From a virus (Duplodnaviria; Heunggongvirae; Uroviricota; Caudoviricetes), in the IMG/VR virus record IMGVR_UViG_2703718819_000016: DNA of 5,412 bases, one strand, 5' to 3'. Shown one piece after another: positions 1-5,412 of this stretch (its first letter is position 1; each line of letters begins with the position of its first letter). A program made the translations under genes and the position numbers. The notes under the pieces are model-generated. The model made no database searches. It saw nothing but the letters and a program-made list of their open reading frames with translations, and had not been told where the DNA came from.

Positions 1-642
1 CGCTTCCACGGCGTTATTGATTACGCGCTTGCTGAAAGTGGCCCTGTGCTCTGAATAGATCGCCACCATTTCGCGGCTAAGTTCCATTGTGCTGACCGGA
101 CACCATACCCCGCCGCGCCATACGTGAACGATTTCACTTTCAGGATGTACGCAAACGCCATCAAAGCGATCGGCAAGCAGCTGCGCGCGCTCACTGTCCG
201 CCATCTGCGAAAGTTGCACCTTTTGCTTTACCGGAAGCTCAATGACCAGACCATCAGAAAGATTCTGGCGCTCACGGGCCAGATATTCGCGCCAGTTCTC
301 CACCTTCTGACCGTGCATACCATCAGGGTAAAAATTTGCATCCTGTACGCCTGCCGCCGCCAGCTTCTGGCCAATCGCCTTTATCATTACTGGCGCAAGA
401 TATCCGGCCCTGAATATGCGCACGGATTTTCTGCCTTCCGGCACAATTTGCAGCTTATCCAGTTCTGATAACTGCTGCTCCCCAAGCCACACAGGAGGCT
501 CATTATCTCCGGCCATACGCGCATCATGTTCCTGCCATTGTTTCGCGTGTGCCCAGGCATCACTACCCGCAAAAATAATGACTTCTGTTCCTTTGTGTTT
601 TATGCCGCGTGACTGCTGTTTTACGTTCGGTGCCAGTTTCAT
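1..642 (-). CDS. Putative replication protein (primase-like, in the position of P4 alpha); N-terminal 214 codons only, 3' end lies beyond the window start
   Basis: Minus-strand frame is open from ATG at 642-640 to position 1 with no stop (MKLAPNVKQQSRGIKHKGTEVIIFAGSDAWAHAKQW...). SD AGGGG lies 6 nt upstream inside the preceding gene, and the ATG overlaps that gene's TGA (ATGA). Absent from the ORF track because it has no stop in the window. The function is inferred from position at the end of the early operon, not from a recognised catalytic motif. Confidence 0.6.
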   Translation of the reverse strand, partial: MKLAPNVKQQSRGIKHKGTEVIIFAGSDAWAHAKQWQEHDARMAGDNEPPVWLGEQQLSELDKLQIVPEGRKSVRIFRAGYLAPVMIKAIGQKLAAAGVQDANFYPDGMHGQKVENWREYLARERQNLSDGLVIELPVKQKVQLSQMADSERAQLLADRFDGVCVHPESEIVHVWRGGVWCPVSTMELSREMVAIYSEHRATFSKRVINNAVEA

Positions 643-1614: not shown

Positions 1615-2071
1615 AGGTTTCCCCCTGACGAATACGGGCGACAAAAATCAGATGTGCGTGCGGCAGCTGCGCGCGTGCTTCGCGCTCAGTGGCAGCCGTG
1701 ACGGTGTAAATATCAATGCTGCTGTGGTGGCACTGCATAAAGCGCCAGACAAAGTAAGGGCGTGCGGATACGGCCATGTGAAAGGCTCCCAGATGAATTT
1801 TAAGGAGTCTCGCTACTACGCTGTCAAACATGGTGGCGAGACGTAACAGGGTTGACAGACTGGTCATCTGGAAACCAGCGAGCACAAAGGCTCCCCCGTT
1901 ACGCCCCGCCATAATGCGGGTATGGGTAGGTTTACGGACACAAAAAAACCGCTTATCGGATGTGGGCGGCTGTCCGCCAGATGTATTCAGGCTGTCAAAC
2001 CCGGTCGCCATGTGGGCGACGGGGGAAGCATACAGCCCCGTGATAATTTTTTGCAAGCGGTTTTTACGCAT
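1604..2071 (-). CDS. Two-part protein (155 aa): unique N-terminal ~100 aa fused in frame to a C-terminal ~55-aa domain paralogous to the 65-aa protein upstream (FVWRF...TEREAR...ARIRQG); possibly Ash-like plus Icd-like
   Basis: ATG at 2071-2069 with SD AGGGG; track ORF 1604..2113 trimmed to this start. The C-terminus PYFVWRFMQ...TVTAATEREARAQLP...LIFVARIRQG aligns with 2064..2261. An internal ATG (MAVSARPY) retains a GGGAGCC SD homologous to the RBS of 2064..2261. The family names are from memory and unverified. Confidence 0.6.
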   Translation of the reverse strand: MRKNRLQKIITGLYASPVAHMATGFDSLNTSGGQPPTSDKRFFCVRKPTHTRIMAGRNGGAFVLAGFQMTSLSTLLRLATMFDSVVARLLKIHLGAFHMAVSARPYFVWRFMQCHHSSIDIYTVTAATEREARAQLPHAHLIFVARIRQGETYAQ

Positions 2072-2261
2072 GATGTGACCCCTGGCGAATACGGGCGGCA
2101 AATACAGCAACACAACCGGACGGGCAACGGTTACGCGCTTCGCGTTCCGTCCAGGCGGTTACGTGGATGATTTGAGATTCTCCGGCACTCAGTGCCAGAA
2201 AACGCCACACAAAGGCCGTTTGTGTGTGTACAAGGTGTGGTATATGATTTACAGCAACCAT
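2064..2261 (-). CDS. Small protein (65 aa) with FVWRF...TEREAR...ARIRQG motifs; first gene of the leftward early operon; possibly Icd-like
   Basis: ATG at 2261-2259 with strong SD (AGGAG, 6-nt spacing). It is the paralogue of the C-terminus of 1604..2071 and its stop overlaps the next start (ATGCGTAA). The Icd-like call is from memory and needs a database check. Confidence 0.65.
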   Translation of the reverse strand: MVAVNHIPHLVHTQTAFVWRFLALSAGESQIIHVTAWTEREARNRCPSGCVAVFAARIRQGSHHA

Positions 2262-2330
2262 AACGGCTCCTAGTTTACGTTGTTGGTTAGAAGCCCCGTT
2301 ACTGCTCCTACAGTGCGGGGTTTCGTCGTT
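2217..2330. repeat. Copy 1 of a ~115-bp diverged direct repeat covering the leader, RBS and first ~15 codons of the leftward operon
   Basis: Shares cgtttgtgtgtgta (2217-2230), ccataa and ttggttagaagccc (2283-2296), followed by a GC hairpin, with 2963..3080 in the same order and orientation. Confidence 0.7.
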
Positions 2331-2350
2331 TCTACACCTTGCCTTAATAA

Positions 2351-2404
2351 GGTGTTGAACACCAATTTAAATCGAGGTGTTAAACACGTCAAGTGTTGAA
2401 CACT
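2351..2404. promoter_or_regulatory. Three palindromic operator-like sites (GGTGTTGAACACC 2351-2363, GGTGTTAAACAC 2376-2387, AGTGTTGAACACT 2392-2404) overlapping divergent promoters
   Basis: Three copies of the inverted repeat GTGTT-N-AACAC lie between the leftward operon (start 2261) and the rightward RHH gene (start 2454). Candidate leftward promoter: -35 TTGACG (2392-2387), 17-bp spacer, -10 TAAATT (2369-2364). Candidate rightward promoter: -35 TTGAAC (2396-2401), -10 CATACT (2419-2424). Confidence 0.6.
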
Positions 2405-2453
2405 TATTTTTTTTCCTGCATACTGCATTTGTTTTTTATGAGGGGTGCTCAAC

Positions 2454-2633
2454 ATGGCGACAAAAGCAGTAAACGCAAAATCACAAACAGTTGCGGCAAG
2501 GGTTCCACATGAAGTTATGAACAATGTTGAGGCGGTAAAAATGCCCGGCGAAAGTACAGGGCAGTTTGTTACAGCTGCATTAAAGCGGGAAGTTGAATAC
2601 CGCCAGCGCCGCAAGACCAAAGAATCAGAATAA
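2454..2633 (+). CDS. Arc/Mnt-type ribbon-helix-helix DNA-binding protein (59 aa), candidate repressor of the adjacent operator cluster
   Basis: ATG at 2454 with SD GAGGGG 8 nt upstream (the track's GTG at 2445 sits inside the SD). The RHH pattern is QTVAARVPHEVMNNVEAVKMPGESTGQFVTAALKREV (beta strand, helix, G-x-S turn, helix). It is divergent from the operator-containing promoter region. Confidence 0.6.
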   Translation: MATKAVNAKSQTVAARVPHEVMNNVEAVKMPGESTGQFVTAALKREVEYRQRRKTKESE

Positions 2634-2690
2634 TCACCATCAGCGCCGTGGTGTGAGGAACTCCGGCGCATTGCTTTACAGGGCAGTACC

Positions 2691-2918
2691 ATGACCAACA
2701 ACACACTATCACCAATACAAGACACGCAGACGCAAGATGATGAAATCATCCGGCAAAGGCAGTCAGAAGCCTGCGCCAGACTTGAGGAAGAACTAACCAG
2801 AACAAAAATACCACCACCAGCGCCGCGCTTAGTGCCACCAGAAAAATTTGCCCTTGAAGATTTTGTCGATAAATACCCACGGCGGCTTAAATCCGGCAAA
2901 AACCGACCGCCAGGATGA
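2691..2918 (+). CDS. Hypothetical protein (75 aa): acidic, helical N-terminal half and proline-rich C-terminal half
   Basis: ATG at 2691 with a weak SD (AGGG, 8 nt). It follows the RHH gene after a 57-bp gap containing a GC hairpin (2643-2669). No recognisable domain; it uses several rare codons (AGG, AGA, CTA, ATA). Confidence 0.35.
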   Translation: MTNNTLSPIQDTQTQDDEIIRQRQSEACARLEEELTRTKIPPPAPRLVPPEKFALEDFVDKYPRRLKSGKNRPPG

Positions 2919-2962
2919 GTGCACAAAACCGAACTCTGAAACGGATTATTCCGTTTCCGGGG

Positions 2963-3080
2963 CGTTTGTGTGTGTATAAAGAGTAAGCTATGCTCTTTTA
3001 TAGCCATAATCTTTACCTCAATTAATGGTTTGGTTAGAAGCCCGTTGGTGTTCATAGCGCCGGCGGGCTTTGCTTTTTGT
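2963..3080. repeat. Copy 2 of the ~115-bp diverged direct repeat; carries a relic start (ATG 3007-3005, MAIKEHSLLFIHTQT) homologous to the N-terminus of 2064..2261
   Basis: cgtttgtgtgtgta at 2963-2976 and ttggttagaagccc at 3030-3043. The minus-strand translation from 3007 gives MAIKEHSLLFIHTQT, against MVAVNHIPHLVHTQT for the intact gene; similarity is lost beyond ~2960. Confidence 0.65.
3038..3080 (+). terminator. Hairpin (stems 3038-3044 / 3064-3070) followed by a T-rich tract; possible intrinsic terminator for the upstream plus-strand genes
   Basis: aagcccg...cgggctt stem with a 19-nt loop, then tgctttttgt. The T-run is interrupted, so strength is uncertain. Confidence 0.4.
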
Positions 3081-3089
3081 GTTGATTGT

Positions 3090-3123
3090 ATGTAATGTGT
3101 CACCACACATAAATACATTACAT
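3090..3123. promoter_or_regulatory. 9-bp inverted repeat ATGTAATGT (3090-3098) / ACATTACAT (3115-3123) flanking TGTGTCACCACACA; candidate operator of the second RHH gene
   Basis: A perfect 9-bp inverted repeat with a 16-bp spacer lies immediately upstream of the SD and start of 3138..3317. Confidence 0.5.
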
Positions 3124-3137
3124 GAGGTGTAATTAAC

Positions 3138-3317
3138 GTGTCAACACACAAAAACGAAAGGCGTGGTAATCCTCCGTTCCAGTTCCGTTTAGATCCTGAC
3201 TTACGGGAAAAGATGGAAAAGGCACAACAACATGACGGCGATGATTCTCTTGCTGCCTGGATAAAGCGAATAATCCGCAAAGAATTACAGCAACGCGGCA
3301 TAGAACCCAAAGGGTAA
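3138..3317 (+). CDS. Arc/Mnt-type ribbon-helix-helix repressor-like protein (59 aa, GTG start)
   Basis: GTG at 3138 with SD GAGGTG 7 nt upstream. PPFQFRLDPDLREKMEKAQQHDGDDSLAAWIKRIIRKEL closely follows the Arc/Mnt pattern (P-x-F-x-F-R...L-R-E-K...G-x-S...I). The translation-initiation region is homologous to that of 2454..2633. Not in the ORF track, probably because it is below the length cut-off. Confidence 0.55.
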   Translation: MSTHKNERRGNPPFQFRLDPDLREKMEKAQQHDGDDSLAAWIKRIIRKELQQRGIEPKG

Positions 3318-3412
3318 TTACATTGCCCACCAGCCTGATAGCGGCTATCATTCCCGTGCTTATGTTTGGGATCACATACACATAAGGCGCAGCAGGTTAA
3401 TTGTTCACAAGG

Positions 3413-3440
3413 GCGTTCCGGCAACGGGGCGCTTTTTGTT
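3413..3440 (+). terminator. Intrinsic terminator-like hairpin (gcgttccg-gcaa-cggggcgc) followed by TTTTTGTT
   Basis: 8-bp stem with two G-T wobble pairs and a 4-nt loop, then a T-run. It lies ~95 bp downstream of the 3138..3317 stop and between the convergent genes 3138..3317 and alpA. Confidence 0.5.
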
Positions 3441-3467
3441 ATGTTCATCGTGTTATGCCTCACACCA

Positions 3468-3674
3468 TTACGCAGCCGTTCCGCGTGCTTCCTGCTCACG
3501 TTCTTTCATCCATGCGATTACGTCTTCCTCATACCATCCGCGACGGCGTAAACCAACGCGAAAACCCTGCGGAAATTCTCCGGCGTTGATCATGCTTTGA
3601 AGCGTGCTGTCTGCCTTGATGTGGATAAGTTTTTTTACTTCCTGGCGAAAGATGACTTTTTTGATTGCTTCCAT
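3468..3674 (-). CDS. alpA: AlpA-family phage regulatory protein (helix-turn-helix; excision and transcription regulator)
   Basis: 68 aa, IFRQEVKKLIHIKADSTLQSMINAGEFPQGFRVGLRRRGWYEEDVIAWMKERE, matches the AlpA/Vis family pattern (E-V...S-x-x-T-I-x-x-x-I-x-x-G-x-F-P...W-x-x-x-E-V-x-x-W). ATG at 3674-3672 with SD AAGGT. Typical position downstream of a P4-type integrase. Confidence 0.85.
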   Translation of the reverse strand: MEAIKKVIFRQEVKKLIHIKADSTLQSMINAGEFPQGFRVGLRRRGWYEEDVIAWMKEREQEARGTAA

Positions 3675-3691
3675 CGTGATTTACCTTGTGA

Positions 3692-3780
3692 ATCCGGTGT
3701 ATTCCGGTGACAAATACGGTAAATCATCGGATACGGGTAAAAACAGTTCCCACCGTTTTTAAACTGTTAGAACCGTTTTT
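3692..3780. promoter_or_regulatory. Cluster of tandem direct repeats upstream of alpA: (A/T)TCCGGTG x2 (3692-3709), ATACGG(G)TAAA x2 (3714-3743), AAC(A/T)GTT-N3-ACCGTTTTT x2 (3742-3780)
   Basis: Three pairs of direct repeats with ~10- or ~20-bp periodicity, read directly in the alpA 5' region; candidate protein-binding sites. Confidence 0.5.
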
Positions 3781-3807
3781 TATGTTGGTGATTTGAAAGG
3801 GATTTAT

Positions 3808-3830
3808 AAAAAAAGCGGCATTTCTGCCGC
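3808..3830 (-). terminator. Strong rho-independent terminator (minus-strand RNA: GCGGCA-GAAA-UGCCGC followed by U7)
   Basis: Perfect 6-bp GC stem with a GAAA tetraloop and a 7-U run on the minus strand, 12 nt downstream of the 3842 stop. Only 3 T follow on the plus strand. Confidence 0.85.
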
Positions 3831-3841
3831 TTTGAGGATTG

Positions 3842-4093
3842 TTACCGCCATTTTTTTGGCCTGCCTCCGGTCTTCATGGTTGCCGGACGAACTACCCTGT
3901 CGATACTTTCAGCCATATTCCTGGATGCCCCACGGGATACCAGGAAATCTACTACCTGTTTTTTTGATGGGGCCGTCGTTCTGTCCTCCGGATCGTAGGT
4001 TGACCAAAATTCATGCTGAACCATCAGGGCCAGTTGCAGCCCGTCGCAATTGCATCTGAAATTTTTTTGCATCTTAACGGTTTCATGTTTCAC
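3842..4093 (-). CDS. Hypothetical small protein (83 aa from GTG 4093, or 76 aa from ATG 4072); basic C-terminus with an AT-hook-like GGRPKK
   Basis: Minus-strand ORF between the integrase stop and the terminator at 3808-3830. Protein-like composition (…KKQVVDFLVSRGASRNMAESIDRVVRPATMKTGGRPKKWR). Weak SD at either start. Preferred over the overlapping plus-strand ORF 3793..4059, which is Pro/Cys-rich and has no terminator. Confidence 0.45.
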   Translation of the reverse strand: MKHETVKMQKNFRCNCDGLQLALMVQHEFWSTYDPEDRTTAPSKKQVVDFLVSRGASRNMAESIDRVVRPATMKTGGRPKKWR

Positions 4094-4170
4094 GGCCTTG
4101 TCGTTAAATTTGATGCAATTATACGACGGTTTTACATGGTTTTCGTAGTTTTTACTGGTTTTCTGTACAG

Positions 4171-5412
4171 CTAAACGGCTCGGATACCCCTTTTACCACT
4201 GGCGAGGGTTACGCCCGTCGCCGCAGCCTCGACAAATTCGCCCCACCAGCGCATAAGCACCACGCGTTTTTCTATGTAGTTGCTCCGGTTGTATGCCCGT
4301 CTCACTTCGTTAGTGTCGACGTGGGCAAGTGCGGCCTCGATTACGTCCGGCTCGAATCCTTCCTCGTTCGCTGCTGTACTGAATATGGCGCGTAATCCAT
4401 GAGACACCAGCACGCCAGCGAACCCCATGCGTCGTAATGCTGCGTTTGCTGTCTGGCTGTTCATTGGCTGCCGTGGGTCTTTCAGACTCGGGAAAACATA
4501 ATCGCGGTGGTGGCTGATTGGTTTCATGGCCTCCAGCACCGCCATAGCCTGACCGGAAAGTGGGATAACGTGATCCCTGCGCATCTTCATGCGTCCGGCG
4601 GGTATCGTCCAGCGTTGCGCGTCCAGGTCGATTTCATCCCACCGCGTTGATGACGCTTCGGCGGGACGGGTTACGGTCAGTAACTGCCATTCAATCAGTA
4701 ATCTGGTCTGCCGTTCTGTTGCCGATACTGATAAAGCCTGCATAAGCTCCGGCAACTGTTCGGGGCGGATTGTTGGCATATGTTTTTTTACAGGGGAGGG
4801 GAACGCCTTACGCACATTCATAGCCGGATTGGCATCAATCAGCCCACTGTTGGCGGCGTAATCCATTACCTCATTAACGCGCTGTAAAACCCGTTTGAGT
4901 GTTTCCAGGTTGCCGCGCTCCTTGATGGGGGTAAGCACCTCAACGAACCTGCGAGCGGTCAGGGTGTCTATTGGGGTGTTGCCGATGAACGGGAATACAT
5001 ATTTATCCAGCGATCGCCAGATGTCTTTAATCGTGTTGGGGGCCAGATTCTGGCTGATTTTCACCTGGTACCATGCCGCCGCCACATTTTCGAACGTGTT
5101 CCCTTGTCTTCGGGCCTCTGCCTCTCGTTTTTTCTTCTCATGGCCCTGCGGGTCAGTTCCGGCACTGATTAACGCTCTGTACTCGCTACGGCGTTTTCTG
5201 GCATCAGCCAGGGAAACATCATCAAGCGATCCAAAACTCAGCAATATTCTTTTTTTGTCCGATGGCCGGTAGTAGGAAAATCGCCAGAGTTTTGATCCGG
5301 ACGGTTTGACCAGGAGAAAAAGCCCTCCGCCGTCCTGTAGGGTGTATTCCTTTTCCGCTGGTCTGGCTGCTTTGATCTGCACCGTGGTTAATGGGGGTGT
5401 TTTTCTCGCCAT
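4171..5412 (-). CDS. int: P4-type tyrosine integrase (site-specific recombinase, IntA-like), full length 413 aa
   Basis: The N-terminus MARKTPPLT...GSKLWRFSYYRP matches the P4/CP4-57 IntA arm-binding region. The C-terminus has catalytic-domain hallmarks (…LLTVTRPAEA…RDHVIPLS…HGLR…VRRAYNRSNY). The start ATG is at 5412-5410, the window edge. Confidence 0.95.
   Translation of the reverse strand: MARKTPPLTTVQIKAARPAEKEYTLQDGGGLFLLVKPSGSKLWRFSYYRPSDKKRILLSFGSLDDVSLADARKRRSEYRALISAGTDPQGHEKKKREAEARRQGNTFENVAAAWYQVKISQNLAPNTIKDIWRSLDKYVFPFIGNTPIDTLTARRFVEVLTPIKERGNLETLKRVLQRVNEVMDYAANSGLIDANPAMNVRKAFPSPVKKHMPTIRPEQLPELMQALSVSATERQTRLLIEWQLLTVTRPAEASSTRWDEIDLDAQRWTIPAGRMKMRRDHVIPLSGQAMAVLEAMKPISHHRDYVFPSLKDPRQPMNSQTANAALRRMGFAGVLVSHGLRAIFSTAANEEGFEPDVIEAALAHVDTNEVRRAYNRSNYIEKRVVLMRWWGEFVEAAATGVTLASGKRGIRAV

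What the first reader, a model, noticed from the sequence alone, without database searches (positions are those of the whole stretch)
2217..3317. Duplicated, diverged immunity modules: two Arc/Mnt-like RHH genes, each with its own operators and a copy of the operon leader
The sequence shows two units with the same architecture: leader repeat, inverted-repeat operators, then a rightward RHH gene. Unit 1 is repeat 2217-2330, the GTGTTnAACAC operators and the gene at 2454..2633. Unit 2 is repeat 2963-3080, the ATGTAATGT/ACATTACAT operator and the gene at 3138..3317. The two RHH genes share homologous initiation regions (atgaggggtgctcaacATG vs atgaggtgtaattaacGTG) but have different operator sequences and DNA-contacting strands. 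This resembles the paired Arc/Mnt repressors of phage P22 immI, here placed in a P4-family satellite-like element. It would give two regulatory specificities at one switch, or record a module swap between elements with different immunity.
Basis: partly seen in the sequence, partly recalled or inferred. Interest (0 to 1): 0.7.

Follow-up and report, generated by a model that had tools for sequence, protein, structure and literature searches.

The report
Stacked repressor cassettes in a phage satellite
This stretch of an E. coli phage-satellite island holds two stacked copies of a small, so far undescribed control cassette (a tiny DNA-binding repressor with its own binding sites, plus a probable antisense RNA), which may be the missing repressor of this class of satellites.

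Summary
The ~120-nt repeat (2212-2335, 2957-3084), the three GTGTTNAACAC palindromes and both 59-aa genes are real. Both proteins are predicted ribbon-helix-helix (RHH) folds. The two RHH genes are not detectably homologous, and each type occurs alone at this position in related islands. The pair therefore looks like cassette stacking by recombination, not duplication and divergence in place. One cassette is usual (75 of 80 loci), two uncommon, three rare. Across eight YlcI-type specificity classes the RHH beta-strand residues co-vary with the operator core. The operators bracket a conserved leftward promoter (TTGACG-17-TAAATT) that faces the icd/C4-RNA/primase operon. The "leader copy" does cover the ribosome site and first 15 codons of the icd-type gene. 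However, it folds only as rightward RNA: two covarying hairpins and a U-tract, so probably a cis-antisense small RNA or terminator absent from Rfam. The strand opposite the cassettes is a stop-free frame from alpA to icd, like P4 eta. The element is a Gram-negative PICI, and the cassette is present in the model islands EcCICFT073 and EcCIEDL933. No binding or expression was tested.

The parts
2212..2335 (+). Repeat copy 1. On the minus strand it holds the SD, the ATG (2261) and the first 15 codons (..LVHTQT) of the icd-like gene. On the plus strand it is a candidate ~80-nt antisense RNA: -10-like TATGAT 2243-2248, hairpin 1 ~2256-2288, invariant box TGGTTAGA, and terminator-like hairpin 2290-2324 with a U-rich tail.
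   Evidence: nhmmer; CM R1 72.9 bits at 2250-2334; plus-strand fold -30.6 kcal/mol, z -3.8, against minus-strand -22.4, z -1.6; covariation
2352..2403 (.). Unit 1 operators O1 2352-2362, O2 2377-2387 and O3 2393-2403 (GTGTTNAACAC)
   Evidence: 3 matches against 0.2 expected; the core co-varies with the RHH beta-strand across 8 types
2364..2392 (-). Leftward promoter P_L1: -35 TTGACG (2392-2387), 17-nt spacer holding O2, -10 TAAATT (2369-2364). O1 lies at about +1. It faces the icd/C4/primase operon.
   Evidence: promoter scan, 9/12; -35 TTGACG and -10 position conserved in the five sequence-distinct non-type-1 representatives tabulated, four with TTGACG (KSKKLEA, KSQSVTA) and none in type B (KSQMTTV); GTCAA is visible in most other YlcI-type intergenic regions
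2396..2424 (+). Inferred rightward promoter P_R1: -35 TTGAAC (inside O3), 17 nt, -10 CATACT 2419-2424
   Evidence: read from the sequence, 8/12, below the scan threshold; -10 (C/T)ATA(C/T)T sits at a fixed -35/-36 from the ATG in all types tabulated
2454..2633 (+). RHH gene 1, YlcI/YnfO family, 59 aa
2637..2690 (+). Conserved spacer with hairpin GCGCCG(2643-2648)...CGGCGC(2663-2668), found after every RHH gene of both types
   Evidence: alignment with L005, L002 and L003; L004 sequence
2691..2918 (+). Partner ORF (75 aa) of unit 1. It shares the MTN.. start and the F-A-L-E-x-F motif with partners in other units.
   Evidence: 17 homologue clusters, all E. coli and all 'hypothetical'; other partners match phrog_21027, unknown function
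2957..3084 (+). Repeat copy 2. On the minus strand it is a truncated icd-type start (ATG 3026, MAIKEHSLLFIHTQT, then no Icd domain). On the plus strand it is the same RNA element, with a strong intrinsic terminator at 3037-3071 and tail GCTTTTTGTG.
   Evidence: nhmmer; CM 70.2 bits; terminator scan; plus-strand fold -32.1 kcal/mol, z -5.0, against minus-strand -16.7, z -0.7
3090..3123 (.). Unit 2 operator: outer inverted repeat ATGTAATGT / ACATTACAT and inner repeat ATGTGT-4-ACACAT
   Evidence: conserved with RHH2-type genes in L002, L004, L001 and L073, and partly in Mannheimia L085
3138..3317 (+). RHH gene 2 (GTG start, 59 aa), Arc-like type. Its spacer and partner ORF are deleted in this window.
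   Evidence: phrog_228 Arc-like repressor 3.3e-6; Foldseek top hits are NikR, Arc, MazE9 and NikA, with TM ~0.6 but E>1; 112 homologue clusters across Enterobacterales and Pasteurellaceae; deletion seen against L004 and L002
3409..3436 (+). Terminator-like hairpin ending the RHH2 transcript
2270..3499 (-). Stop-free 'eta-like' frame (409 codons) antisense to both cassettes. It has a SD and ATG at 3448, just after the alpA stop, and ends at a TAG inside the SD of the icd-like gene.
   Evidence: 398 of 402 codons open, 0 of 3000 null simulations reach this; the same feature is seen in 30 sequence clusters of related loci
2064..2261 (-). icd-like gene 1, the first gene of the leftward operon
   Evidence: NCBIfam NF033153 64.8 bits
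1829..2033 (-). C4 antisense RNA (1829-1916) and its a1b1 target (1984-2033), followed by icd-like gene 2 (1604-1777)
   Evidence: Rfam RF01695 72.6 bits, RF03163 46.8 bits; NF033153 55.1 bits
3468..3674 (-). AlpA/Vis-like HTH regulator, upstream of the eta-like frame
   Evidence: phrog_66 and phrog_2790, 'excisionase and transcriptional regulator'; Pfam Phage_AlpA 17.8 bits, below cut-off

Best explanation
The region holds two stacked copies of a conserved regulatory cassette of Gram-negative PICI-type satellites.

Each cassette has four parts:
(a) An ~85-nt element that overlaps the ribosome-binding site and first codons of the leftward icd/ash (P4 kil/eta-like) gene. It is structured only as rightward RNA. 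It is probably a cis-antisense small RNA that ends at its own intrinsic terminator, which in arrays also terminates the neighbouring cassette's transcript.
(b) A back-to-back promoter region carrying cassette-specific inverted repeats.
(c) A 59-aa RHH protein that reads those repeats with its beta-ribbon.
(d) A conserved spacer and a small partner ORF of unknown role. Both are lost from unit 2 in this window.

The RHH most likely represses its own promoter and also the leftward promoter that feeds the icd / C4-RNA / primase operon. That would make it a protein repressor of the satellite's early replication operon, acting on top of the C4 RNA immunity.

Late transcription coming from alpA crosses the cassettes on the other strand in a stop-free frame. 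By analogy with P4 eta, this frame is translated so that the transcript escapes termination.

With two cassettes there are two differently repressed leftward promoters in series. Loss of either repressor could then fire the operon. The stack arose by recombination in the shared framework sequences, not by duplication and divergence of one gene.

Shown here: the anatomy, its conservation, the operator/protein co-variation, the RNA covariation and strand bias, and the open frame. Inferred: DNA binding, repression, expression of the RNA, translation of the frame, and the OR-gate logic.
For: Cassette anatomy and generality:
- All 80 IMG/VR loci with a YlcI-type gene carry the element ~120-240 nt upstream.
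- The element, the RHH and a divergent leftward gene are also found in loci not used to build the covariance model: Mannheimia L085 (36.9 bits, next to a Phage_ASH gene), a Yersinia P2-like prophage L086 (62 bits), EcCIEDL933 (63 bits) and EcCICFT073 (79 bits).

Operator recognition:
- Eight YlcI-type beta-strand variants pair one-to-one with eight GTGT-NNN-CAC cores.
- Proteins only 59-70% identical but with the same strand (KSQT[VIL]AARVPH) keep GTGTTGAACAC.

Promoters:
- TTGACG-17-TAAATT on the minus strand, with O2 in the spacer and O1 at about +1.
- The positions are conserved while operator cores change.

RHH fold.

RNA element:
- 94.7% of cells pair, 10 of 16 pairs have compensatory changes, and 0 of 500 shuffles reach the score.
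- There are 48 G.U cells on the plus strand against 5 that would be G.U on the minus strand.
- The plus strand folds 8-15 kcal/mol better than the minus strand.
- The anti-SD sequence lies in the loop of hairpin 1.
- A -10-like TAnnnT hexamer sits at a fixed -42..-45 in all 17 diverse representatives.

Open frame:
- p < 3e-4 in the window.
- ORFs tile 91-100% of the leader-to-alpA interval in 30 clusters.
- P4 precedent, as summarised in PMC10111431: eta is coupled to the alpA homologue, contains the internal promoter, and its translation prevents termination.

Stacking:
- One copy in 75 of 80 loci and two in 5 of 80.
- Three units in L004.
- 34 of 5426 E. coli genomes carry the window's pair, and about 1300 carry unit 1 alone.
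Against: - No binding, transcript or reporter data exist.
- Neither protein reaches a curated RHH or Arc Pfam threshold.
- Unit 2 has no promoter on either strand that reaches the scan threshold, and it lacks its partner ORF, so it may be partly disabled.
- The internal type-B unit of L004 lacks the TTGACG -35. Not every stacked unit therefore need drive leftward transcription.
- The -10 of the proposed small RNA lies in sequence that also codes on the other strand.
- The RNA structure was predicted on the plus strand, which biases the strand comparison somewhat.
- Published work on EcCICFT073 found AlpA to be an activator and reported no repressor.
Confidence: 0.6

Rival explanations
1. One RHH module was duplicated in place and diverged, giving an Arc/Mnt-like pair that acts together at a single immunity switch, as in P22 immI.
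For: The two genes have the same length (59 aa) and the same architecture, with similar RBS context (14/19, read from the sequence) and shared framework sequences. There are weak links of RHH2 to the YlcI/YnfO-DUF3950 group: NF041551 E 0.0027, and 8 of 38 relatives hit DUF3950, best 3.3e-4.
Against: There is no detectable homology between the two proteins. Each type occurs alone at the same position in other islands. Arrays combine different left-hand types with RHH2, which indicates cassette exchange. No ant-type gene lies under their control in the window. Each unit has its own complete promoter and operator set rather than one shared switch.
Confidence: 0.12
2. Unit 2 is a decaying recombination scar. 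The truncated icd start and the loss of the partner ORF suggest it has no present function, and only unit 1 regulates the operon.
For: Copy 2 keeps only 15 codons of an icd-type gene (sequence). The spacer and partner ORF of unit 2 are deleted compared with L004 and L002. No promoter in 3080-3137 reaches the scan threshold.
Against: The RHH2 ORF is intact and 92-98% identical to homologues elsewhere. Its inverted repeats are intact. The RNA element of copy 2 scores as well as copy 1 (70.2 against 72.9 bits) and has the better terminator. The same pair is kept in 34 complete E. coli genomes. RHH2 is the alpA-proximal unit in 7 of 8 multi-unit loci. The ATG of copy 2 opens a frame that stays open to the SD of the icd gene.
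Confidence: 0.18
3. The RHH and its partner ORF form an addiction (toxin-antitoxin-like) or accessory module. It would be unrelated to control of the satellite's own operon, and its operators would serve autoregulation only.
Against: The partner is 57-75 aa, has no toxin-family match and is dispensable, being deleted in unit 2. Two of the three operators bracket the leftward promoter rather than the RHH's own promoter. The cassette always sits divergent from an icd/ash-type gene, including in Pasteurellaceae.
Confidence: 0.06
4. The long minus-strand ORF is the only real gene here, as PGAP annotates it in EDL933, and the small plus-strand ORFs are artefacts of its antisense strand.
For: The frame is open far beyond chance. 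It is annotated as a 247-aa hypothetical protein in EDL933, where the plus-strand ORFs are not annotated.
Against: The RHH families are conserved as proteins across many genera and in other genomic contexts. They have a curated NCBIfam model and RHH-like predicted folds, and they co-vary with nearby DNA repeats. The 409-aa product has no family match.
Confidence: 0.03

Closest known systems
Phage P22 immI region (Mnt and Arc RHH repressors, antisense sar RNA, antirepressor ant)
   Same: Small RHH repressors bind inverted repeats over back-to-back promoters. A small antisense RNA covers the ribosome site of the regulated gene, and it lies in a secondary immunity region. This comparison rests on my knowledge of P22. 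The RHH fold is supported.
   Different: The proteins are not members of Pfam Arc (best 0.14 for a relative; nothing for the window proteins). No ant gene lies under their control in the window. The cassettes are stacked in series with separate promoters rather than facing each other at one switch. The antisense RNA is predicted only.
P4 left-operon control (PLE inside eta, Kil as truncated Eta, CI RNA/seqA, late PLL read-through coupled to the alpA homologue Vis)
   Same: An alpA-type gene is followed by a long translated frame that contains an internal leftward promoter and ends at an icd/kil-type gene. A C4/CI-class immunity RNA lies downstream.
   Different: As summarised in PMC10111431, the P4 internal promoter is constitutive and no protein repressor is described. 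Here the internal promoter is bracketed by RHH operators, and the RHH gene is encoded antisense inside the frame. In the window the frame stops 9 nt before the icd ATG rather than being fused in frame.
P1/P7 immI (c4 antisense RNA - icd - ant)
   Same: A C4 RNA (72.6 bits), its a1b1 target (46.8 bits) and two Icd-like genes lie directly downstream of the cassettes.
   Different: These parts lie outside the finding's coordinates. No RHH cassettes are known in P1 immI (from my knowledge, not tested).
YlcI/YnfO family (NCBIfam NF041551; Pfam DUF3950), small prophage proteins of unknown function
   Same: Protein 1 is a clear member, at 59.7 bits against a cut-off of 30.
   Different: No function is recorded for the family in the sources searched. 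This work assigns it an RHH fold, cognate operators and a genomic role. Protein 2 is below threshold (17.7 bits).
Stl/Rpr master repressors of Gram-positive PICIs (SaPIs)
   Same: The repressor gene is divergent from the replication operon of a satellite. This is the role proposed here (PMC6092414).
   Different: The fold is different and the protein far smaller. Nothing shows that a helper-phage protein relieves it. In Gram-negative PICIs, AlpA activation is the only established control.

Membership tests
Ribbon-helix-helix (MetJ/Arc) superfamily | N-terminal beta-strand followed by two helices (beta-alpha-alpha) | tested here: inconclusive
   AF2 monomer models (pLDDT 79-80) give an N-terminal extended or short-helix segment plus two helices: 20-33 and 38-52 for RHH2, 19-28 and 35-58 for the YlcI type. 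The intersubunit ribbon cannot form in a monomer model.
Ribbon-helix-helix (MetJ/Arc) superfamily | Structural similarity to solved RHH proteins | tested here: met
Ribbon-helix-helix (MetJ/Arc) superfamily | Significant match to a curated RHH sequence model (Pfam Arc, RHH_1 and others) | tested here: not met
   No Pfam family at E <= 1 other than noise. Across the alignments there are only scattered sub-threshold hits to CB_ParB_C, PSK_trans_fac, HicB and RHH_7. PDB profile searches are empty.
Ribbon-helix-helix (MetJ/Arc) superfamily | G-x-S/T/N turn between the helices, and sequence-specific binding of the ribbon to repeated operator half-sites | tested here: inconclusive
   The turns PGEST and DGDDS are invariant in the alignments. 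Beta-strand residues co-vary with operator cores in 8 classes. Binding itself cannot be tested with these tools.
YlcI/YnfO family (NCBIfam NF041551) | Score above the curated cut-off (30 bits) | tested here: met
   Protein 2454..2633 scores 59.7 bits. Protein 3138..3317 scores 17.7 bits, which does not meet the cut-off.
P22 Arc / Mnt | Membership of Pfam Arc (PF03869) or detectable homology to Arc or Mnt | tested here: not met
   No hit for either window protein. phrog_228 'Arc-like repressor' at 3.3e-6 for RHH2 is a remote-homology cluster label, not Arc itself.
P22 immI architecture | The two repressors act on facing promoters that control an antirepressor gene | tested here: not met
   Both RHH genes point the same way, each with its own promoter region. 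The regulated leftward genes are icd-like, C4 and primase, and no ant gene is in the window.
C4/CI-type antisense-RNA immunity (P1, P7, P4) | C4-class RNA with upstream target elements, next to an icd/kil-type gene | tested here: met
   RF01695 72.6 bits (gathering score 45) and RF03163 46.8 bits (gathering score 46.7). Icd-like NF033153 scores 64.8 and 55.1 bits. These lie at 1604-2261, beside rather than inside the finding.
Gram-negative PICI (EcCICFT073 type) | int, alpA, replication module (primase, SSB), PerC and late genes in one orientation, at a fixed chromosomal site | tested here: met
   The window holds int, an alpA-like gene, DUF4222 and a primase start, all on the minus strand. 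Relatives add SSB, PerC and terminase, and sit next to tRNA-Pro or roxA. EcCICFT073 itself has the same order and the same cassette. Helper-dependent induction was not tested.
P4 eta/kil arrangement | A long translated frame that starts at the alpA homologue, spans the internal promoter and ends as the kil/icd-type product | tested here: inconclusive
   The stop-free frame is significant and conserved, and a SD and ATG lie 20 nt after the alpA stop (sequence). In many single-unit relatives the frame is fused to the icd-like gene. In the window it stops 9 nt before the icd ATG. Translation was not tested.

The most novel reading that the evidence does not exclude
The cassette is the long-sought repressor switch of Gram-negative PICIs. 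It would combine an RHH repressor, a partner protein and a new cis-antisense small RNA, and it has been overlooked because it is encoded antisense inside a long, translated read-through frame. Stacks of cassettes with different specificities would make the replication operon answer to any one of several signals or helper phages, as an OR gate.
Probability: 0.25. Interest if true: 0.8.

Novelty: new variant of a known kind. Interest (0 to 1): 0.62.

Why it matters
[quoted passage not shown] The cassette described here is a concrete candidate. It sits exactly where a repressor would be expected. It carries type-specific operators over the promoter that faces the replication operon. It is also present in both laboratory model islands: annotated only as "YlcI/YnfO family protein" in EcCICFT073, and not annotated at all in EcCIEDL933.

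The analysis also gives the uncharacterised YlcI/YnfO family a predicted fold and DNA targets, and it predicts a new structured RNA that is absent from Rfam. The opposite strand appears to be kept free of stop codons, which extends the P4 eta principle to PICIs. The eight-class table of operators and beta-strands is a ready-made set of natural specificity variants for RHH recognition studies. All of this can be tested with standard genetics in existing strains.

Tried and rejected
- Pfam scans of both RHH proteins, the partner ORF and the 409-aa antisense product gave nothing at or near threshold.
- PDB sequence-profile searches gave only noise.
- BLASTP and hhalign between the two RHH families showed no significant relation.
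- An Rfam scan at E <= 1 matched nothing over either repeat copy.
- The Forti et al. 1999 P4 eta/kil paper could not be read, as PMC94026 is not held. I relied on its summary in PMC10111431.
- A first literature search for P4 kil/eta returned only irrelevant papers.
- A text search for the conserved box sequence found no relevant paper.
- Esr41, an O157 island small RNA, was considered as a possible identity of the predicted RNA and rejected. It lies on SpLE1.
- A toxin-antitoxin reading and a reading in which only the antisense ORF is real were considered and given low weight (see rivals).
- My automatic -10 search sometimes picked the CATAAT that overlaps the start codon instead of the -43 hexamer. 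The position of the proposed RNA's promoter is therefore not settled.
- The regular expression used caught only some cassette types, so the promoter table is incomplete.
Full report
**Context.** The window is part of an integrase island of the Gram-negative PICI type. On the minus strand it carries:
- an integrase (4171-5412);
- an 83-aa ORF;
- an AlpA/Vis-like regulator (3468-3674);
- an Icd-like gene (2064-2261);
- a C4-class antisense RNA with its a1b1 target (1829-2033);
- a second Icd-like gene, small ORFs, DUF4222 and the start of a primase.

Parts of it match 1675 of 5426 complete E. coli genomes. Relatives continue with SSB, PerC and late genes, and sit next to tRNA-Pro or roxA. The model island EcCICFT073 has the same order. 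The three plus-strand ORFs of the finding are the only genes pointing the other way.

**The observation.**
- The repeat is real but diverged. Its local alignment scores 38, against 18.5 +/- 2.3 for shuffles, with a maximum of 32 in 500. A profile places the copies at 2212-2335 and 2957-3084.
- Three GTGTTNAACAC palindromes are found where 0.2 are expected.
- The ATGTAATGT/ACATTACAT pair is present. It would not be significant alone. It is credible because it is conserved with this RHH type in other loci.
- Both ORFs have many homologues: 61 and 112 clusters across Enterobacterales, and for the second also Pasteurellaceae.

**The proteins.**
- Protein 1 (2454..2633) is a YlcI/YnfO family member, at 59.7 bits against a cut-off of 30.
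- Protein 2 (3138..3317) has only weak labels: phrog_228 "Arc-like repressor" at 3.3e-6 and YlcI_YnfO_N at 0.0027.
- No Pfam RHH or Arc model is reached.
- AlphaFold models (pLDDT about 80) show an N-terminal segment and two helices.
- The Foldseek list for protein 2 starts with NikR and Arc.
- Both alignments keep the G-x-S turn typical of the fold.

I accept the RHH fold as likely for both proteins. The two families are not detectably related to each other. A distant link through the YlcI/YnfO-DUF3950 group is possible.

**One unit or two.**
- In 80 IMG/VR loci found with the YlcI-type protein, every locus has the repeat element 120-240 nt upstream of the gene.
- 75 of these loci have one copy and five have two.
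- In E. coli, 34 genomes hold the window's pair and about 1300 hold unit 1 alone.
- The second type stands alone, directly divergent from an ash/icd operon, in L002.
- L004 has three units with a period of about 745 bp and three different specificities.
- In seven of eight multi-unit loci the Arc-like type is the unit nearest alpA, while the other unit varies.

This is cassette stacking and exchange at shared framework sequences, not divergence of a local duplicate. The left breakpoint of copy 2 lies inside an icd-type gene, just after the codons for HTQT. In the window, unit 2 has also lost the conserved spacer and partner ORF that follow every other RHH gene.

**The operators are read by the RHH.** Eight YlcI-type beta-strand variants go with eight operator cores:

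| Beta-strand | Operator core |
|---|---|
| KSQT[VIL]AARVPH | GTGTTGAACAC |
| KSKKLEARVPH | GTGTCAGCCAC |
| KSQSVTARIAH | GTGTAAGACAC |
| KSKRFDVRVPH | GTGTCGGACAC |
| KSKRIDARVPL | GTGTCGGACAC / GTGTGGGACAC |
| KSKKIDVRVPH | GTGTCAGACAC |
| KSQALKARVPH | GTGTGGCCCAC |
| KSQMTTVRIPH | GTGTATTTCAC |

Proteins only 59-70% identical overall, but with the same strand, keep the same core.

The sites have a fixed layout. A leftward promoter, TTGACG-17-TAAATT (2392..2364), has one site in its spacer and one at about +1. Its -35 and the rightward -10 keep their positions while the cores change. The third site overlaps the inferred -35 of the RHH's own promoter. This is the layout of a repressor that controls both its own gene and the divergent icd/C4/primase operon. 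Binding itself is inferred.

**The "leader copy".** On the minus strand the repeat holds the SD, the ATG and 15 codons of the icd/ash gene. Its conserved structure, however, is on the plus strand.
- In 39 diverse copies, 94.7% of cells pair and 10 of 16 pairs show compensatory changes. No shuffle out of 500 reaches the score.
- There are 48 G.U cells on the plus strand, against 5 that would be G.U on the minus strand.
- As RNA the plus strand folds at -30.6 and -32.1 kcal/mol (z -3.8 and -5.0). The minus strand folds at -22.4 and -16.7 kcal/mol (z -1.6 and -0.7).
- The fold has two hairpins. The first has the anti-SD sequence in its loop, and its outer stem is made by the invariant TGGT box. 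The second is GC-rich and followed by a U-tract. The scan tool calls copy 2 a terminator.
- A -10-like TAnnnT hexamer lies at a fixed distance upstream in all 17 diverse representatives.
- A covariance model built from these copies finds the element in loci outside the training set: Mannheimia, a Yersinia P2-like prophage, EcCIEDL933 and EcCICFT073. In each it lies beside an RHH gene.
- Rfam has no match there.

I read this as a probable cis-antisense small RNA against the translation start of the icd/ash gene. In arrays it also terminates the neighbouring cassette's transcript. Expression is untested.

**The opposite strand.**
- The minus strand is stop-free for 398 of the 402 codons between the icd ATG and the alpA stop. 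None of 3000 simulations that keep the plus-strand proteins and the dinucleotide content of the spacers reaches this.
- In 30 sequence clusters of related loci, long minus-strand ORFs tile 91-100% of that interval.
- A SD and ATG follow the alpA stop by 20 nt, and the frame ends in the SD of the icd gene (read from the sequence).
- This matches what is reported for P4. There, eta is coupled to the alpA homologue, contains the internal promoter, ends as Kil, and must be translated for the late transcript to escape termination (PMC10111431).
- The product has no family match. I think the act of translation matters, not the protein.

**How it most likely works.** In the quiescent island, each RHH holds down its own promoter and the leftward promoter of its cassette. 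The antisense RNA and the downstream C4 RNA add post-transcriptional blocks on the icd-type genes. On induction, AlpA-dependent transcription enters from the right and is translated through the cassettes. It also runs antisense to the RHH messages. With two cassettes, two differently controlled leftward promoters lie in series. The ATG of copy 2 opens a frame that reaches the icd SD, so transcripts from the distal promoter could also be translated through. Whether unit 2 is fully active is uncertain. It lacks a partner ORF and a clear promoter.

**Comparison with known systems.** The system works like P22 immI (RHH repressors plus an antisense RNA) combined with P4 and P1 immunity (C4/CI RNA, eta/kil). 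It is not a member of the Arc/Mnt family. Fillol-Salom et al. state that a global repressor in Gram-negative PICIs is unclear (PMC6092414). No paper found here describes this cassette. EcCICFT073 carries it, annotated only as a family name. In EcCIEDL933 the RHH and partner are unannotated, and the antisense ORF is annotated instead.

**Verdict.** The finding is a new variant of a known kind of regulator, with a testable link to an open question. Interest 0.62.

Noticed in passing
window 1829-2033 (minus strand): A full C4 antisense RNA (Rfam 72.6 bits) with its a1b1 target element (46.8 bits) and a sub-threshold isrK match. It lies between two paralogous Icd-like genes (2064-2261 and 1604-1777, which share the repeat CCCCTG.CGAATACGGGCG.CAAA).
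   Followed up: partly
window 2270-3499 (minus strand): A 409-codon stop-free frame antisense to three genes and four spacers. All three plus-strand genes are in the same phase, so third codon positions coincide on the two strands.
   Followed up: yes
window 3317-3345, compared with L004 5842-6110: The conserved spacer and the partner ORF that normally follow the RHH gene are deleted in unit 2. The RHH2 stop is joined to the last ~25 nt of the partner ORF (TTGCCCACCAGCCTGATAGCGG).
   Followed up: partly
L088 (E. coli O157:H7 EDL933, NZ_CP008957) 3534-4102: The model island EcCIEDL933 holds the RNA element (63 bits), an unannotated 63-aa Arc-like RHH ORF (3680-3871) and a partner ORF (3914-4102). 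RefSeq annotates only the antisense 247-aa ORF (3571-4314) as a hypothetical protein.
   Followed up: partly
L004 (NZ_CM168048) 4000-6110: A three-unit tandem array with a period of about 745 bp and three different operator and RHH specificities. The middle unit lacks the TTGACG -35 of the leftward promoter.
   Followed up: partly
window 3741-3780: A tandem 20-nt direct repeat, AAACAGTTCCCACCGTTTTT / AAACTGTTAGAACCGTTTTT, lies just upstream of the alpA-like gene. It could be a binding site for whatever activates alpA.
   Followed up: no
L086/L087 (Yersinia enterocolitica) 4860-5800: The same RNA element and an RHH2-type gene occur inside a P2-like prophage, next to a RelB/YafQ toxin-antitoxin pair and tail-fibre genes. 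The module is therefore not confined to PICIs.
   Followed up: no
window 590-615 and 3288-3313: A 26-nt inverted repeat, 85% complementary, joins the start of the primase gene and the 3' end of the RHH2 gene, 2.7 kb apart. It is probably chance.
   Followed up: no
related loci, e.g. L052 against L071, upstream of the element: The nucleotide block CCAAACTCGCCC on the minus strand is conserved but read in different frames in different islands. This points to conservation at the DNA or RNA level rather than the protein level in the first codons of the icd/ash gene.
   Followed up: no
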